A stretch of DNA of 64,000 nucleotides from Escherichia coli (GTDB lineage Bacteria; Pseudomonadota; Gammaproteobacteria; Enterobacterales; Enterobacteriaceae): assembly GCF_024223415.1 (NCBI RefSeq), contig NZ_CP100500.1, one strand, 5' to 3'. Below the pieces are notes generated by a model. The model did no database searches and was not told the origin of the DNA. It saw only the letters and a program-made list of their open reading frames with translations. The position numbers and the translations under genes are program-made. Each line of letters begins with the position of its first letter. The first letter of the stretch is position 1. Shown one piece after another: positions 25,295 through 29,155 of the stretch.

Positions 25295-25987
25295 TTATGC
25301 AAAACGGTGTAGTGTCATAGGCCAACTGACAATTACTTTTCCGTCAATGTGAAGTTGTTCGAAGTCTTCCGGTTCGATAGCCCAATCCTTGTAAGCTGGG
25401 TTGTCAGATATCACCGTTAGAGTATCTTTGATTTTTTGAAGTCTTTTGATGTGCGATGTTCCAGAGTATGTAAAGGCGTATATACCATCACCATTAAATG
25501 TGCGAACTGATACATCTACAAATACCAAGTCTTCAGGGTCTATTGTGCCTTTCATACTGTCGCCGTGGGCGTTTATTGCTTTGATTGCTGATGCTGGTCT
25601 GCCGCCAAAAACTCTTGATGCGTATCCTGGCTCTATCGCTATAGATCTGACAATGTCAGGAAAATCAGAGTTATAACTACCAGGTCCGCAACTATATCTG
25701 ATGTCTAAAACATCCACGACATACGAATCAGTAACCCAATCTTCAGAAATGTTACGTATTTGGTGTGAGTCTGCAGAGGTCACGATTTCCATTGGGCCAA
25801 CACCCGATGCGAGCCATTCCGGGTTAACGCCCAAAACTTTTGCTATTTCGACTGTTTTTCTGGAACCGTTGGCTTTGTTAAGTAGTTGGTTAACACTGGA
25901 CTGAGCCATACCCACTTCTTTGGCCAGCCTACCTTGCGTAAATTTTGCGTTGCGCATAGCTAAATCAAGTCGTTCTGAAAATGTCAT
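25295..25987 (-). CDS. cI: CI-like repressor (HTH + S24 LexA-type peptidase domain)
   Basis: N-terminal HTH (FTQGRLAKEVGMAQSSVNQL) and C-terminal S24 autocleavage domain (AHGDSMKG...IKRL); divergent from the cro-like gene. Confidence 0.85.
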   Translation of the reverse strand: MTFSERLDLAMRNAKFTQGRLAKEVGMAQSSVNQLLNKANGSRKTVEIAKVLGVNPEWLASGVGPMEIVTSADSHQIRNISEDWVTDSYVVDVLDIRYSCGPGSYNSDFPDIVRSIAIEPGYASRVFGGRPASAIKAINAHGDSMKGTIDPEDLVFVDVSVRTFNGDGIYAFTYSGTSHIKRLQKIKDTLTVISDNPAYKDWAIEPEDFEQLHIDGKVIVSWPMTLHRFA

Positions 25988-26055: not shown

Positions 26056-26084
26056 TTGAATATCGCTTTTCCTGTTGTTATTAT
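26056..26084 (+). promoter_or_regulatory. pR-like promoter
   Basis: TTGAAT-17 bp-TATTAT followed by AGGAGA RBS and the cro-like ATG at 26107. Confidence 0.45.
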
Positions 26085-26106
26085 GCGTTCAATAGGAGAT
26101 GCGATT

Positions 26107-26394
26107 ATGAAACATAAAGCCATAGAGAAAGCTATTGAGATTCTTGGAAGTCAGCAAGCCTTAGCCAAGCGATGCGGAAAGGCCCAGTCAACAGTCTGCG
26201 ATTGGTTGAACTGCAAGAACAAGATTTCACCAGAATTTGTGCCGTTATTGGTTGCAGCTGTCGACGGAAAGATCCAAGCGTATGAATTTCGTCCAGACCT
26301 ACCAGAGCTTTTTCCACATCCAAGCTTAGCGCGCACGGGGGAGGTGAAGGGCTTGTATGTCCCAGAATTACGTTCAGACAGAGATGCCATCTAG
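26107..26394 (+). CDS. Cro-like HTH regulator
   Basis: MKHKAIEKAIEILGSQQALAKRCGKAQSTVCDWLN... HTH; divergent from cI; track ORF 26056..26394 starts at an upstream alternative codon. Confidence 0.65.
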   Translation: MKHKAIEKAIEILGSQQALAKRCGKAQSTVCDWLNCKNKISPEFVPLLVAAVDGKIQAYEFRPDLPELFPHPSLARTGEVKGLYVPELRSDRDAI

Positions 26395-26650
26395 GTACTG
26401 CCAGGCAGACGAAGAGTGGATTCAGCAGCAGTTACAGAGGCTGCCTCCGTCACTGAGACGGAAGGTCGCCCTGAAATATGCGGAGGTATACGAAATCACT
26501 TTTGACGCTGAGCCTGTTTCATTCCGCAAGGAGAACAGAGCAAGGCACGAAGCAAACACAAGGCTCCGCCTGTTCGTGAGAAATCAGGGCAGAGCTTTAC
26601 AGGGGTATACAACTCAGCCGCCCCTGGCAGGAACGCAATCGCGCTCCTGA
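26357..26650 (+). CDS. hypothetical protein at the cII position
   Basis: 97-aa ORF overlapping the cro-like 3' end; start uncertain. Confidence 0.35.
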   Translation: MSQNYVQTEMPSRYCQADEEWIQQQLQRLPPSLRRKVALKYAEVYEITFDAEPVSFRKENRARHEANTRLRLFVRNQGRALQGYTTQPPLAGTQSRS

Positions 26651-26906
26651 TTGGTACCGGGCTTAAAGGTGTCCGGTGGCTGATTGAAAATGGTAAAAAT
26701 ATTTAGACGTCTATATGTCTGGATGTATTTACCACCCCCTAAATGTTTATGGGGGAAAGGGGGCGGTGTTGATCTTTTAGCGCGAAGCGCTGGAACAGGC
26801 TTTTCCAAGAAGACGGGTACATAGGTTAGGTAGATCTCTGTATAGGGAAATACCAGAAGACGCTCAGATGTTTAGACGTCCAGCCGTAAAGATTGGAGGT
26901 GATTTT

Positions 26907-27500
26907 ATGGTTAACAATTTTGCTGATGAAAAATGGATTCCGGTTCCTGTTGCTCCTTACGGCAACGCTTACCTCGTTAGTTCGGCTGGACGCATTCGCG
27001 GTGTTAATCGTGTAGCTGAATCAGAATTTTTTATTCGTCAAATCCGTGGAGTGATCCTCAAAGGGAGGGTGCGTCGGGATGGATATAAGACCGTTAACCT
27101 GAGCTACAAACGAAATCGTCAAACATTTGCCATTCATCGCCTGGTAGCGCTGGCTTTTTGCGACAACCCACACAATCACACTGAGGTTAATCACAAAGAC
27201 GGCAACAAACTAAATAACCACGCATCCAATCTGGAGTGGGTTAGCCACAAAGAAAATATTCAGCACTCAATTCTTACAGGACTCAATAAATCGCAGGGGG
27301 CTGACAACAAGCAATTTAAGGGCCTAATTGTCGCTACAAATCTTTCGACCGGGGAGGAGCAAACTTTTTGCGGGAAAAAGGCGCTAATTAGTGCTGGGTT
27401 TGATCACGGTAGTGTTTATGCGGTTATTGCTGGAAGAGTAAAGTCTCATCGTGGCCACTATTTCAAGCGCCTCCCACTGAACCATGAGGAGGCAGCTTAA
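26907..27500 (+). CDS. HNH endonuclease
   Basis: Start MVNNFADEKWIPV... with GGAGGTG RBS; HNH core EVNHKDGNKLNNHASNLEWVSHKEN. Confidence 0.7.
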   Translation: MVNNFADEKWIPVPVAPYGNAYLVSSAGRIRGVNRVAESEFFIRQIRGVILKGRVRRDGYKTVNLSYKRNRQTFAIHRLVALAFCDNPHNHTEVNHKDGNKLNNHASNLEWVSHKENIQHSILTGLNKSQGADNKQFKGLIVATNLSTGEEQTFCGKKALISAGFDHGSVYAVIAGRVKSHRGHYFKRLPLNHEEAA

Positions 27501-29155
27501 TGCTGAATATTGAACCGAATTTTGCACAGGAGCGAGCGCTAAACATGTTGCGCCGTGACTGGAAGGCAAACGACACCTTCATGGTGTATTCGCCAACCGG
27601 TAGCGGTAAAACGGGTCTGGCAGCCTTCATAGTTGCTGGTTTTGTCAGCCGTGGTATGCGCGTTCTGTTCTGTGTTCCGTACACCATCCTGATTGGTCAG
27701 ACGGCTAATCGGTTCGTGCAGTATGGTTTACCTGGAGATGAAATCGGTTATATCTGGGCGGATCACCCTAACTACGATCCGGACCGGAAAATTCAGATTG
27801 CCAGCGCTGACACGCTTATTCGTCGTGTTTTTCCTGAAAATATCGATCTGCTGATTATCGACGAAGCGCACCTGCGTAAAAAACGCATCCTGAAGGATAT
27901 CGAACGTCTGCGCGGCAAAGGCGTAAAGGTGATTGGCCTGTCGGGTACTCCGTTTTCTCCGTTCCTGGGCAAATACTATGACCGACTGATTAAGCCGACC
28001 ACCATCGGCGAGTTAATCCAGCGTGGCGATCTGAGTAAATACGAATTTTACGCGCCAACTAAGCCGGATCTGAAAGGTGTTAAAACCACATCTTCGCTTG
28101 AGTACGGCCGCGATTACAACGAAACACAGCTGGCTGAAATCATGTGCGGCTCTACGCTGGTGGGCGACATCGTACAGAACTGGCTGGAGAATGGTCGGGA
28201 TCTACCTACCATCGCTTTCTGCGTCAACGTAGCTCACGCCAATTATCTGACAATCCAGTTTAACCTGGCGGCTGTTAACGCTGAGGTAATGACCGCCGAC
28301 ACTCCGGTAGATGAGCACCAGACCATCATTCACCGCTTTGAAACCGGTGCAACGAAAATCATCGTTAGTGTGGGCGTTCTGGTAGCCGGATTCGATAGTG
28401 ACGTTCGTTGCATCATCTACGCCAGACCAACAAAAAGCGAAATTCGCTGGTTGCAGGCACTCGGGCGTGGACTTCGCACCGCACCGGGTAAAGAGTCCTG
28501 CCTTATCTTCGATCACAGCGGCACCGTGCACCGTCTGGGTTATCCGGATTCAATCGAGTACGACGATCTTCCCGGTAAGTCTGACGGCATGGAGGAAAGC
28601 ACGCGCCGCGCAGTTGAGGAACGGGCCGAAAAATTGCCACATGAATGCCCTCAATGCCACTACATGAAGCCAGCTGGCGTCTATGTTTGCCCGAAATGTG
28701 GACACAAGCCGCTGCGAGGTGAAGACGTTGATACTGACACTAGCCGCAAACTTAATAAGCTGGGTAAAAATCAGCATCAGTCCACGAAGGCAGAGAAACA
28801 GGCCTGGTGGAGTCAGATCAAATTTTATCAGCGCCAGCGTGCCTCACTGGGGCGTCCAGTCAGTGATGGATGGTGCGCTCACACTTTCAGGGAGAAATTC
28901 GGTGAATGGCCTGATGGGTTGAGTAGTTTCCCGATGGAAATAAGCCCAGAGGTAAGTAACTACATCAGACACAAGCTGATCCGGTTTGCTAAAGGTCGTG
29001 AACGGACACGGAGGATGACGAAAAACTCATCCGAAGTGCTTTCTCTGCCACTGGTTGTTGGTGGCCGGTATGTTCCACCGGAAGAAAGTGAGGCTTGGCG
29101 CATTATGCAGGCAAAGCAACAACTCCAGAAAAATATAAACAGTCTGAGTCAGTAA
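27500..29155 (+). CDS. SF2 DEAD/DEAH-type helicase (phage replication)
   Basis: Walker A SPTGSGKT, DEAH-like IIDEAH, motif VI QALGRGLR; C-terminal Cys4 (CPQCH...CPKCGH). Confidence 0.8.
   Translation: MLNIEPNFAQERALNMLRRDWKANDTFMVYSPTGSGKTGLAAFIVAGFVSRGMRVLFCVPYTILIGQTANRFVQYGLPGDEIGYIWADHPNYDPDRKIQIASADTLIRRVFPENIDLLIIDEAHLRKKRILKDIERLRGKGVKVIGLSGTPFSPFLGKYYDRLIKPTTIGELIQRGDLSKYEFYAPTKPDLKGVKTTSSLEYGRDYNETQLAEIMCGSTLVGDIVQNWLENGRDLPTIAFCVNVAHANYLTIQFNLAAVNAEVMTADTPVDEHQTIIHRFETGATKIIVSVGVLVAGFDSDVRCIIYARPTKSEIRWLQALGRGLRTAPGKESCLIFDHSGTVHRLGYPDSIEYDDLPGKSDGMEESTRRAVEERAEKLPHECPQCHYMKPAGVYVCPKCGHKPLRGEDVDTDTSRKLNKLGKNQHQSTKAEKQAWWSQIKFYQRQRASLGRPVSDGWCAHTFREKFGEWPDGLSSFPMEISPEVSNYIRHKLIRFAKGRERTRRMTKNSSEVLSLPLVVGGRYVPPEESEAWRIMQAKQQLQKNINSLSQ

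What the first reader, a model, noticed from the sequence alone, without database searches (positions are those of the whole stretch)
26907..27500. HNH endonuclease embedded between the immunity region and the replication genes
A 197-aa protein with an HNH core (EVNHKDGNKLNNHASNLEWVSHKEN) sits between the cII-position gene and the helicase. HNH genes at this position are typically homing-type or selfish insertions and can mark a recombination hotspot. The 250-bp region upstream contains two copies of TTTAGACGTC and a G/C-rich inverted repeat.
Basis: partly seen in the sequence, partly recalled or inferred. Interest (0 to 1): 0.35.

Follow-up and report, generated by a model that had tools for sequence, protein, structure and literature searches.

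The report
Free-standing HNH homing endonuclease gene
This is a real I-HmuI-type HNH nuclease gene that is optional in a lambdoid prophage: it sits just upstream of the replication helicase gene in about 7% of related E. coli prophages and looks like a selfish "homing" gene, a common kind of element in phages.

Summary
ORF 26907-27500 (+) encodes a 197-aa protein with NUMOD4, HNH_3 and I-HmuI-type C-terminal domains. Its only significant solved relative is the nicking homing endonuclease I-HmuI (sequence E=2e-18, fold E=3e-11), and the catalytic His and Asn residues are conserved.

The slot between the 97-aa cII-position gene and the SF2 helicase has three states. Among about 88 complete E. 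coli genomes with this replication module:
- 42 are empty: a leader with a hairpin and a 19-codon mini-ORF coupled to the helicase start.
- 38 carry an unrelated 122-aa gene with a PD-(D/E)xK nuclease fold.
- 6 carry the HNH.

The HNH ORF replaces the hairpin and most of the mini-ORF, and takes over the translational coupling to the helicase. It is under strong purifying selection (dN/dS 0.09). Its synonymous divergence from the other E. coli HNH allele is about 20 times that of the flanking genes (0.62 against 0.03). All ten homologs examined with at least 52% identity, in four genera, occupy this same slot.

The two TTTAGACGTC copies are real. Units of this kind occur upstream of nearly all HNH alleles and of no HNH-less allele.

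Verdict: a free-standing homing-type endonuclease gene, a new member of a known kind. Nuclease activity, target and mobility are inferred, not shown.

The parts
26907..27500 (+). HNH endonuclease ORF, 197 aa: NUMOD4 (res 8-66), HNH_3 (76-117), I-HmuI-type C-terminal DNA-binding domain (147-187)
   Evidence: Catalytic H96, N104 and N117 align to I-HmuI H75, N83 and N96.
26896..26900 (+). Shine-Dalgarno GGAGG for the HNH ORF
   Evidence: Read directly from the sequence. The 26907 start is shared with relatives (L003 annotation).
27484..27502 (+). Right junction: helicase SD (GAGGAGG) inside the HNH 3' end, and the TAATG stop/start overlap. Homology to HNH-less alleles resumes here.
   Evidence: In TUM1886-type alleles the HNH ORF ends in the last codons (..AQCS*) of the mini-ORF found in HNH-less alleles.
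26697..26720 (.). Imperfect palindrome made of two inverted ~16-nt 'type A' units (AAATATTTAGACGTC / GACGTCTATATGTCT). It contains the first TTTAGACGTC (26702-26711) and is the centre of a 44-bp palindrome (26691-26734).
   Evidence: A TTTAGACGTC-like unit is present at this position in 11 of 13 unique HNH upstream regions and 0 of 66 HNH-less ones.
26866..26880 (+). Third type A unit AGATGTTTAGACGTC (second TTTAGACGTC at 26871-26880), 27 nt upstream of the HNH start
   Evidence: Conserved in the E. coli and Salmonella HNH alleles.
26731..26767 (.). G/C-rich inverted repeat ACCACCCCCT ... AGGGGGCGGT, part of a G-run tract that all alleles carry in some form
26779..26791 (+). Mini-hairpin AGCGC-GAA-GCGCT (GCGAAGC type). 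p1347 alleles and the Serratia L008 and L096 HNH alleles have AGTGC-GAA-GCACT, a compensatory C-G to T-A change.
26791..26838 (.). Conserved island shared by all three allele types and four genera: TGGAACAGGCTTTTCCA (GGAA-N7-TTCC) and CATAGGTTAGGTAGATCTC
26656..26677 (+). Hairpin with invariant loop CTTAAAGGTG and a covarying stem, just after the phrog_852 stop codon
26357..26650 (+). Left flanking gene: 97 aa, phrog_852, unknown function, cII position
27500..29155 (+). Right flanking gene: SF2 (DEAD/ResIII) helicase, followed by a P4-type primase at 29157-30125

Best explanation
The ORF is a free-standing (not intron- or intein-borne) homing endonuclease gene of the I-HmuI type.

The protein: a monomeric, extended, three-domain protein. 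It has an N-terminal NUMOD4 domain, a beta-beta-alpha-metal HNH/N catalytic domain and a C-terminal helix-turn-helix domain. Enzymes of this type bind a long site and nick DNA.

The gene: it lies in the early rightward operon of a lambdoid prophage, in an optional slot directly upstream of the helicase-primase genes. It has no detectable promoter of its own. It is inserted in frame into the tail of a 19-codon leader mini-ORF, so helicase translation is now coupled to HNH translation instead.

Inferred mechanism: during co-infection, or infection of a lysogen carrying an HNH-less relative, the enzyme nicks or cuts the HNH-less allele near this slot. Candidate targets are the leader hairpin and mini-ORF that the insertion destroys, or the GTACTAG..CTAGTAC palindrome that HNH alleles lack. 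Recombinational repair from the HNH-bearing copy then copies the gene in, together with short flanks.

The TTTAGACGTC units travel with the HNH. They are most likely its own recognition sites or the cut-resistant version of the target.

Shown here: domain architecture, I-HmuI homology, conserved catalytic residues, presence/absence polymorphism with defined junctions, purifying selection, discordant history of gene and flanks, and fidelity to this locus across genera. Inferred: catalytic activity, the target, and gene-drive behaviour.
For: Family: Pfam NUMOD4 + HNH_3 + I-HmuI_NUMOD-like; PHROG 59 2e-39; PADLOC HEase 7e-24; I-HmuI 1u3e phmmer 2e-18 over residues 47-187. The AF2 model (pLDDT 84.5) has I-HmuI as its only significant PDB match, E 3e-11 over 193 columns. 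H96, N104 and N108 are invariant and N117 nearly so across 20 homologs.

Optional gene: the slot has three states. In E. coli complete genomes the counts are 42 empty, 38 p1347 and 6 HNH. In IMG/VR they are 49, 17 and 2.

Junctions: the left junction is in the empty-type leader and the right junction is in the mini-ORF tail.

Selection and history: dN/dS is 0.08-0.10. dS for the HNH, window against TUM1886-type, is 0.62, against 0.03 for p852, helicase and primase. An identical HNH allele sits next to helicases that differ from each other (L016 and L048). Helicase 5' clusters at 1% divergence or less contain mixed slot states.

Locus fidelity: all 10 homologs examined at 52-88% identity, from Escherichia, Salmonella, Serratia and Yersinia, overlap the helicase start. 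A 42% homolog lies elsewhere.

Fit to known free-standing endonuclease genes: they are intergenic, in the same orientation as their neighbours, often promoter-less cassettes, and cut at some distance in or near a conserved neighbouring gene (PMC2988022). No promoter or terminator consensus was found in 26650-26906.
Against: No activity, target or biased inheritance is shown.

The residue equivalent to I-HmuI D74 is Asn (N95) throughout this clade. From my recollection of Shen et al. 2004, not retrieved here, D74 is a metal ligand. Catalysis is therefore plausible but not assured.

The lineage is old, always at this one locus and always translationally coupled to the helicase. That also fits a beneficial accessory gene kept by selection.

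The TTTAGACGTC-type units are conserved across clades whose synonymous sites are saturated. They therefore have a function of their own, which a purely selfish model does not require.

Ordinary homologous recombination between mosaic lambdoid phages could produce the same patchy distribution without any endonuclease-driven step.
Confidence: 0.62

Rival explanations
1. Accessory replication nuclease. The HNH, and in other phages the PD-(D/E)xK-fold p1347 protein, works with the helicase-primase. For example, it could nick at the TTTAGAC/GTCTAAA palindrome in a putative origin or control region to help start or redirect replication, or act as a nuclease partner of the SF2 helicase.
Against: About half of close relatives have neither nuclease and keep near-identical helicase and primase genes, so no nuclease is required. 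The coupling device (the mini-ORF) predates the insertion and was simply inherited. No origin has been mapped here.
Confidence: 0.13
2. Inter-phage competition nuclease without self-mobility. The prophage uses a site-specific nickase to damage the replication region of superinfecting relatives that carry the other motif type, giving exclusion rather than homing. The precedent is the I-HmuI-like nickase NixI of Vibrio PLE.
For: NixI is an I-HmuI-like nicking nuclease used to block a rival phage's replication (PMC9410903). HNH alleles carry a different motif from HNH-less alleles at the corresponding upstream position, and the window's clade differs at both positions. The gene sits in a prophage early operon.
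Against: The gene lies downstream of cro in the lytic early operon, so it should be silent in a repressed lysogen. The discordant dS and the same HNH allele on different backbones show that the gene itself moves. In phage crosses, exclusion and homing are two outcomes of one mechanism, so this rival is not cleanly separable from the best explanation.
Confidence: 0.12
3. Passive mosaic cassette. The gene is shuffled only by general or illegitimate recombination typical of lambdoid phages. The nuclease is inactive or irrelevant to its spread.
For: Lambdoid genomes are mosaic. A mosaic boundary lies nearby at about 26345, where the immunity region meets the replication genes. Conserved flanks provide homology for ordinary exchange.
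Against: dN/dS of about 0.09 and conserved catalytic residues argue for an active protein. The slot attracts two unrelated nuclease-fold genes, and a relative carries an intein in the adjacent helicase. That pattern is typical of homing elements.
Confidence: 0.1

Closest known systems
I-HmuI (Bacillus phage SPO1, PDB 1u3e), an HNH/N nicking homing endonuclease
   Same: It has the same three-part layout and an aligned HNH/N motif (H75/H96, N83/N104, N96/N117). Sequence E is 2e-18 and fold E is 3e-11 over nearly the full length.
   Different: I-HmuI is encoded inside a group I intron of the DNA polymerase gene. This gene is free-standing between two genes, and Rfam finds no intron. Overall identity in the fold alignment is about 27%. 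The D74 position is Asn here. The target is unknown.
Free-standing HNH endonucleases of T-even phages (T4 mobA-E; 'intronless homing')
   Same: The gene is intergenic between conserved genes, in the same orientation as its neighbours, and has no detectable promoter of its own. It is polymorphic among close relatives and lies next to an essential replication or nucleotide-metabolism gene (PMC2988022; PMC2790892, title and abstract).
   Different: The host is a temperate lambdoid prophage of Enterobacterales. The insertion is in frame with a leader mini-ORF and takes over translational coupling to the helicase. It comes with its own conserved palindromic units upstream. No activity data exist.
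NixI of Vibrio cholerae PLE, an I-HmuI-like nickase
   Same: It is an I-HmuI-related HNH/N nuclease carried by a mobile element, and it acts on a competitor's DNA (PMC9410903).
   Different: NixI is only about 10% identical to I-HmuI, is not a homing gene and is encoded by a satellite. The present protein is a much closer I-HmuI relative and shows the population pattern of a mobile gene.
Terminase-associated HNH proteins of cos phages (HK97 gp74 type)
   Same: They share the HNH catalytic motif and occur in a siphovirus or lambdoid genome.
   Different: Those are small HNH proteins located next to the terminase and cos site (PMC3592412, abstract). This one has NUMOD4 and helix-turn-helix domains and lies in the replication region. 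It is not a member of that group.

Membership tests
I-HmuI-like HNH/N endonucleases | Beta-beta-alpha-metal HNH/N motif with the general-base His and the catalytic or metal-binding Asn | tested here: met
   H96 aligns to H75, N104 to N83 and N117 to N96. H96 and N104 are invariant and N117 is conserved in at least 90% of 20 homologs. The I-HmuI catalytic Asn is experimentally validated according to PMC9410903.
I-HmuI-like HNH/N endonucleases | Acidic residue preceding the catalytic His (I-HmuI D74, a metal ligand from my recollection of Shen et al. 2004, not retrieved here) | tested here: not met
   The position is N95, nearly invariant as Asn in this clade. The effect on catalysis is unknown. 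Asn can ligate metal in other beta-beta-alpha-Me nucleases (general knowledge).
I-HmuI-like HNH/N endonucleases | Extended three-domain architecture: N-terminal beta-sheet DNA-binding domain, HNH domain, C-terminal helix-turn-helix | tested here: met
   Pfam NUMOD4 8-66, HNH_3 76-117 and I-HmuI_NUMOD-like 147-187. The AF2 model aligns to 1u3e over 193 columns, probability 1.00.
I-HmuI-like HNH/N endonucleases | Site-specific single-strand nicking of a long asymmetric target | not testable with these tools
   This needs an in vitro assay.
Free-standing homing endonuclease genes (intronless homing) | Separate ORF in an intergenic position between conserved genes, not inside an intron or intein | tested here: met
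   The ORF lies between phrog_852 and the helicase. Rfam finds no intron.
Free-standing homing endonuclease genes (intronless homing) | Presence/absence polymorphism among close relatives, with definable junctions | tested here: met
   Empty alleles have helicase protein 99% identical (L015). Counts are 42/38/6 in E. coli genomes. Junctions are mapped.
Free-standing homing endonuclease genes (intronless homing) | Evolutionary history of the endonuclease gene discordant with its flanks (horizontal spread) | tested here: met
   dS is 0.62 in the HNH against 0.03 in the flanks. An identical HNH allele lies on divergent backbones. Helicase clusters contain mixed slot states.
Free-standing homing endonuclease genes (intronless homing) | The enzyme cuts the endonuclease-less allele near the insertion site while its own genome is resistant | not testable with these tools
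   Only circumstantial evidence exists. The insertion removes the leader hairpin and mini-ORF, and HNH alleles lack the GTACTAG..CTAGTAC palindrome.
Free-standing homing endonuclease genes (intronless homing) | Nuclease-dependent super-Mendelian inheritance in mixed infection | not testable with these tools
   This needs phage crosses.
Terminase-associated HNH (cos-cleavage helper) | Adjacency to the terminase genes and cos site | tested here: not met
   The gene lies between the immunity and replication genes.

The most novel reading that the evidence does not exclude
The HNH and its conserved TTTAGAC/GTCTAAA units could form a self-contained origin- or control-site specificity module. In this reading the nuclease binds or nicks its own palindrome in the region upstream of the helicase-primase genes. 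That would replace the GTACTAG..CTAGTAC site used by HNH-less phages. The three slot states (empty, PD-(D/E)xK, HNH) would then be alternative ways of starting or protecting replication, rather than simply selfish DNA.
Probability: 0.07. Interest if true: 0.7.

Novelty: new member of a known kind. Interest (0 to 1): 0.35.

Why it matters
The gene itself is an ordinary kind of phage element. Its setting makes it a tractable natural system for studying intronless homing in temperate enterobacterial phages.

- One short slot upstream of a conserved helicase has three well-sampled states: empty, HNH and a PD-(D/E)xK-fold gene.
- The junctions are defined, and near-isogenic HNH+ and HNH- backbones exist.
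- Candidate cis sites are identified.
- An intein sits in the same helicase in one relative.

It also explains a local mosaic breakpoint in this family of prophages, which includes Fels-1 and phi467. If the linked palindromic units prove to be the enzyme's own sites, this would be a case of a homing-type nuclease carrying its recognition elements with it.

Tried and rejected
- Intron- or intein-borne endonuclease: rejected. It is a separate ORF with its own SD, and Rfam gave no intron hit.
- Terminase-associated HNH: rejected on position and domain content.
- Pseudogene or remnant: rejected by dN/dS 0.09 and conserved catalytic residues.
- Essential member of the replication module: rejected, because 42 of about 88 E. 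coli modules and 49 of 68 IMG/VR loci are empty.
- Strict co-switching of both upstream motif copies with the HNH: only partly true. It holds for the window's own clade (E. coli, Salmonella and L095). L014 and Serratia L008 keep a type A unit at the first position but only a degenerate copy at the second. L097 and L098 combine a TTTAGACGTC-type palindrome with a GTAGTAC-type second site. The Yersinia HNH alleles have the GTACTAG type.
- CI, Cro, p852, helicase or primase as the factor matching motif type: rejected for the local genes. L003 and L001 share them at 95-97% yet differ in motif type.
- Promoter and terminator consensus scan of the intergenic region: nothing found.
- Rfam: no family matched.
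- NCBIfam: no model for the HNH, p1347 or p852.
- A MAFFT helicase alignment timed out and was replaced by an ungapped comparison.
- A MAFFT alignment across the three alleles was distorted by the large indels. Junctions were therefore taken from BLAST pieces and a leader-only alignment.

Full report
**1. The observation.** The ORF is there as described. It runs from ATG 26907 to TAA 27498-27500, is 197 aa long, and is preceded by GGAGG at 26896-26900. Its stop overlaps the start of the next gene as TAATG. The quoted HNH core is residues 93-117.

The surrounding genes give a lambdoid early-right layout:
- an S24-type CI repressor (25295-25987, minus strand);
- a YdaS/Cro-like gene (26056-26394);
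- a 97-aa gene of unknown function (phrog_852, 26357-26650);
- the HNH gene;
- an SF2 DEAD/ResIII helicase (27500-29155);
- a P4-type zinc-ribbon/Toprim primase (29157-30125).

An exactly identical protein, annotated from the upstream ATG at 26868, is on record from E. coli (P0001).

**2. What the protein is.** Several searches agree.
- Pfam gives NUMOD4 (8-66, 2.6e-10) and HNH_3 (76-117, 2.1e-7), both above their gathering scores. It also gives the I-HmuI NUMOD-like C-terminal domain (147-187, 1.2e-3), which is below its gathering score.
- PHROG 59 'HNH endonuclease' scores 2.4e-39.
- The PADLOC 'homing endonuclease' model scores 6.9e-24.

Among all PDB sequences the only match is I-HmuI (1u3e), at E 2.2e-18 over residues 47-187. 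An AlphaFold2 model built on 20 homologs has mean pLDDT 84.5. Its only significant PDB hit is again I-HmuI, at E 3.3e-11 and probability 1.00 over 193 columns. The modest TM-score (about 0.5) is expected for an extended multi-domain protein.

The active-site residues map as follows: H96 to I-HmuI H75, N104 to N83 and N117 to N96. H96, N104 and N108 are invariant and N117 is nearly invariant in the family alignment. One departure is N95 in place of I-HmuI D74.

**3. Is it optional?** Yes. The space between the phrog_852 gene and the helicase has three discrete states.
- **Empty** (gap about 438 bp). The leader contains a hairpin (GGCTGGCAGCC...CCACCAGCC) and a 19-codon mini-ORF (MKTTSQNYYLIS..AQ(W/C)S*). 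The mini-ORF's stop lies just past the helicase ATG, which is a translational-coupling device.
- **p1347** (gap about 738 bp). A 122-aa gene is inserted between the second upstream motif and the hairpin. It replaces 57 bp.
- **HNH** (gap 797-992 bp across clades).

I queried the 5,426 complete E. coli genomes with each allele in turn. About 88 genomes carry this module: 42 match the empty allele over at least 80% of its length, 38 match the p1347 allele and 6 match the HNH allele. Among 80 IMG/VR loci found with the helicase, the counts are 49 empty, 17 p1347, 2 HNH and 12 too short to classify.

Known phages Fels-1 and phi467 carry p1347.

**4. Junctions.** In HNH alleles of the more distant clades (L097, L098, Yersinia, Serratia L096) the empty-type leader is kept up to '...GAGTGATTTTT.AGAGG', and the HNH ORF begins a few bases later.

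At the 3' end, the HNH ORF of the TUM1886-type alleles runs in frame into the last codons of the mini-ORF. The HNH ends ...GEAAQCS*, and the mini-ORF ends ...AGTAQCS*. Both share the sequence GCACAATGCAGCTGA, which contains the helicase ATG.

The ancestral event therefore replaced about 110 bp, comprising the hairpin and the 5' part of the mini-ORF, with the HNH ORF. The HNH inherited the coupling to the helicase. In the window this junction has been remodelled further: the HNH stop is now TAA in TAATG, there is a 3-bp deletion, and the helicase N-terminus reads MLNIEP instead of MQLTITP.

Relative to the nearest HNH-less relatives, the window-specific DNA falls in two blocks: about 26676-26786, and about 26842 (or 26855) to 27484-27501.

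**5. History.** The HNH is under strong purifying selection, with dN/dS 0.09 against the other E. coli allele and 0.08 against Salmonella.

Its synonymous divergence from the TUM1886-type allele is 0.62. The flanking p852, helicase and primase genes of the same two genomes differ by only about 0.03. The HNH allele was therefore exchanged independently of its backbone.

The reverse pattern also occurs. An identical HNH allele (L003 = L016 = L048) lies next to helicases that differ from each other. Clusters of the first 960 nt of the helicase at 1% divergence or less contain mixtures of HNH, p1347 and empty states.

At the same time the lineage is faithful to this locus. All ten homologs looked up, at 52-88% identity, overlap the start of the same helicase-primase pair. 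They come from Escherichia, Salmonella, Serratia, Yersinia and metagenomes. A 42% homolog lies elsewhere.

Two of these homologs (P0008 and Serratia P0009) have a degenerate HNH motif. Some decay is expected in a homing-endonuclease life cycle.

The same slot therefore hosts two unrelated nuclease-fold genes. One relative (L095) also carries an intein in the adjacent helicase. The neighbourhood attracts homing-type elements.

**7. The upstream region.** The two TTTAGACGTC copies are real and are the only exact copies in 64 kb. They belong to three copies of a ~16-nt unit. Two inverted copies form a palindrome at 26697-26720, which is the centre of a 44-bp palindrome. The third copy is at 26866-26880.

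A TTTAGACGTC-like unit occurs upstream of the HNH in 11 of 13 unique HNH upstream regions, the exceptions being the Yersinia alleles. It occurs in none of 66 unique HNH-less regions. HNH-less alleles instead carry GTACTAG..TAGTAC and (C/G)TAGTAC at the corresponding two positions.

A TUM1886 prophage (HNH, type A units) and phi467 (p1347, the other motif) are 95-97% identical across the immunity and replication genes. The HNH is therefore the only local gene that covaries with the unit.

The units persist across HNH clades whose synonymous sites are saturated. I infer that they are functional and linked to the HNH. They could be its recognition sites, or a cut-resistant replacement of its target. 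This is inference only.

The association is not perfectly 'concerted'. L097 and L098 combine a TTTAGACGTC-type palindrome with a GTAGTAC-type second site.

The same intergenic region contains other conserved elements:
- a G-run tract with the inverted repeat ACCACCCCCT/AGGGGGCGGT;
- a GCGAAGC mini-hairpin with a compensatory change between allele types;
- a box conserved in all alleles (TGGAACAGGCTTTTCCA ... CATAGGTTAGGTAGATCTC);
- a hairpin with an invariant loop YTTRAAGGTN and covarying stems.

As RNA, 26648-26912 folds better than all 200 shuffles (z = -3.8). No Rfam family, sigma-70 promoter or intrinsic terminator consensus was found there. Its function is unresolved; it could be a control region, a nut-like site or an origin.

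**8. Mechanism and comparison.** The anatomy matches what is described for free-standing endonuclease genes of T-even phages. Those genes are intergenic between conserved genes, share the orientation of their neighbours, and are often promoter-less cassettes within an existing operon. Their cleavage sites lie some distance away in or near a conserved neighbouring gene, and they spread by double-strand-break repair with co-conversion (PMC2988022).

I therefore rate a free-standing I-HmuI-type homing endonuclease as the best explanation (0.62). The rivals are:
- an accessory replication nuclease (0.13);
- a competition nickase in the manner of NixI (0.12; PMC9410903);
- a passively shuffled cassette (0.10).

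None of the decisive properties can be tested with these tools: cleavage, target, and nuclease-dependent biased inheritance.

**9. Verdict.** This is a new member of a well-known kind of element. The locus structure adds modest interest: three states, in-frame capture of a leader mini-ORF, and linked palindromic units.

Noticed in passing
window 26656-26677 (and one or two copies in relatives, e.g. L015 2568-2621): A hairpin sits immediately downstream of the phrog_852 gene. Its 10-nt loop is invariant (YTTRAAGGTN; CTTAAAGGTG here), while the stem differs between relatives (CCGGG/TCCGG, GCAGG/CCTGT, CTGA/TCAG, TTCGGG/CCCGAA). That is covariation with sequence-specific loop conservation. It has no Rfam match. 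It could be a nut/boxB-like site or a single-strand initiation signal.
   Followed up: partly
L001 2556-2924 (phi467); the same slot as window 26855-27484: The alternative cassette gene (122 aa, phrog_1347, no Pfam) is predicted with confidence to have a PD-(D/E)xK restriction-endonuclease-like fold, with conserved D58, E72 and D74. It is unannotated in all records seen.
   Followed up: yes
L015 2945-3004; absent from the window, where the HNH 3' end replaces it at about 27440-27500: HNH-less alleles have a conserved 19-codon mini-ORF (MKTTSQNYYLIS..AQWS*) with a strong SD. Its stop overlaps the helicase start. It is preceded by the hairpin GGCTGGCAGCC...CCACCAGCC. This is probably a translational-coupling or regulatory leader for the helicase.
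   Followed up: partly
L095 2248-4830 (GCA_902847105.1 contig): In this relative the helicase is 860 aa. An intein-like insert (it starts with C, ends with HN and is followed by C) interrupts the '...APGKES|CLIFDHSG' motif. The same locus has an HNH with a degenerate catalytic motif (P0008).
   Followed up: partly
window 26779-26791: The GCGAAGC-type mini-hairpin AGCGC-GAA-GCGCT shows a compensatory double change (AGTGC-GAA-GCACT) in p1347 alleles and in the Serratia L008 and L096 HNH alleles. It is absent from empty alleles.
   Followed up: partly
window ~26345: There is a sharp mosaic boundary. Relatives that are 96-97% identical from 26345 rightward (replication genes) carry unrelated immunity regions to the left. 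L016 shares the window's immunity region as well.
   Followed up: partly
window 26881-26912: In the minimum-free-energy RNA fold, the HNH start codon and SD lie inside a predicted local hairpin (CCGUAAAG...UUUUAUGG). The pairing is possible but weaker in the TUM1886-type and Salmonella alleles. It might limit HNH translation, as described for some T4 endonuclease genes.
   Followed up: no
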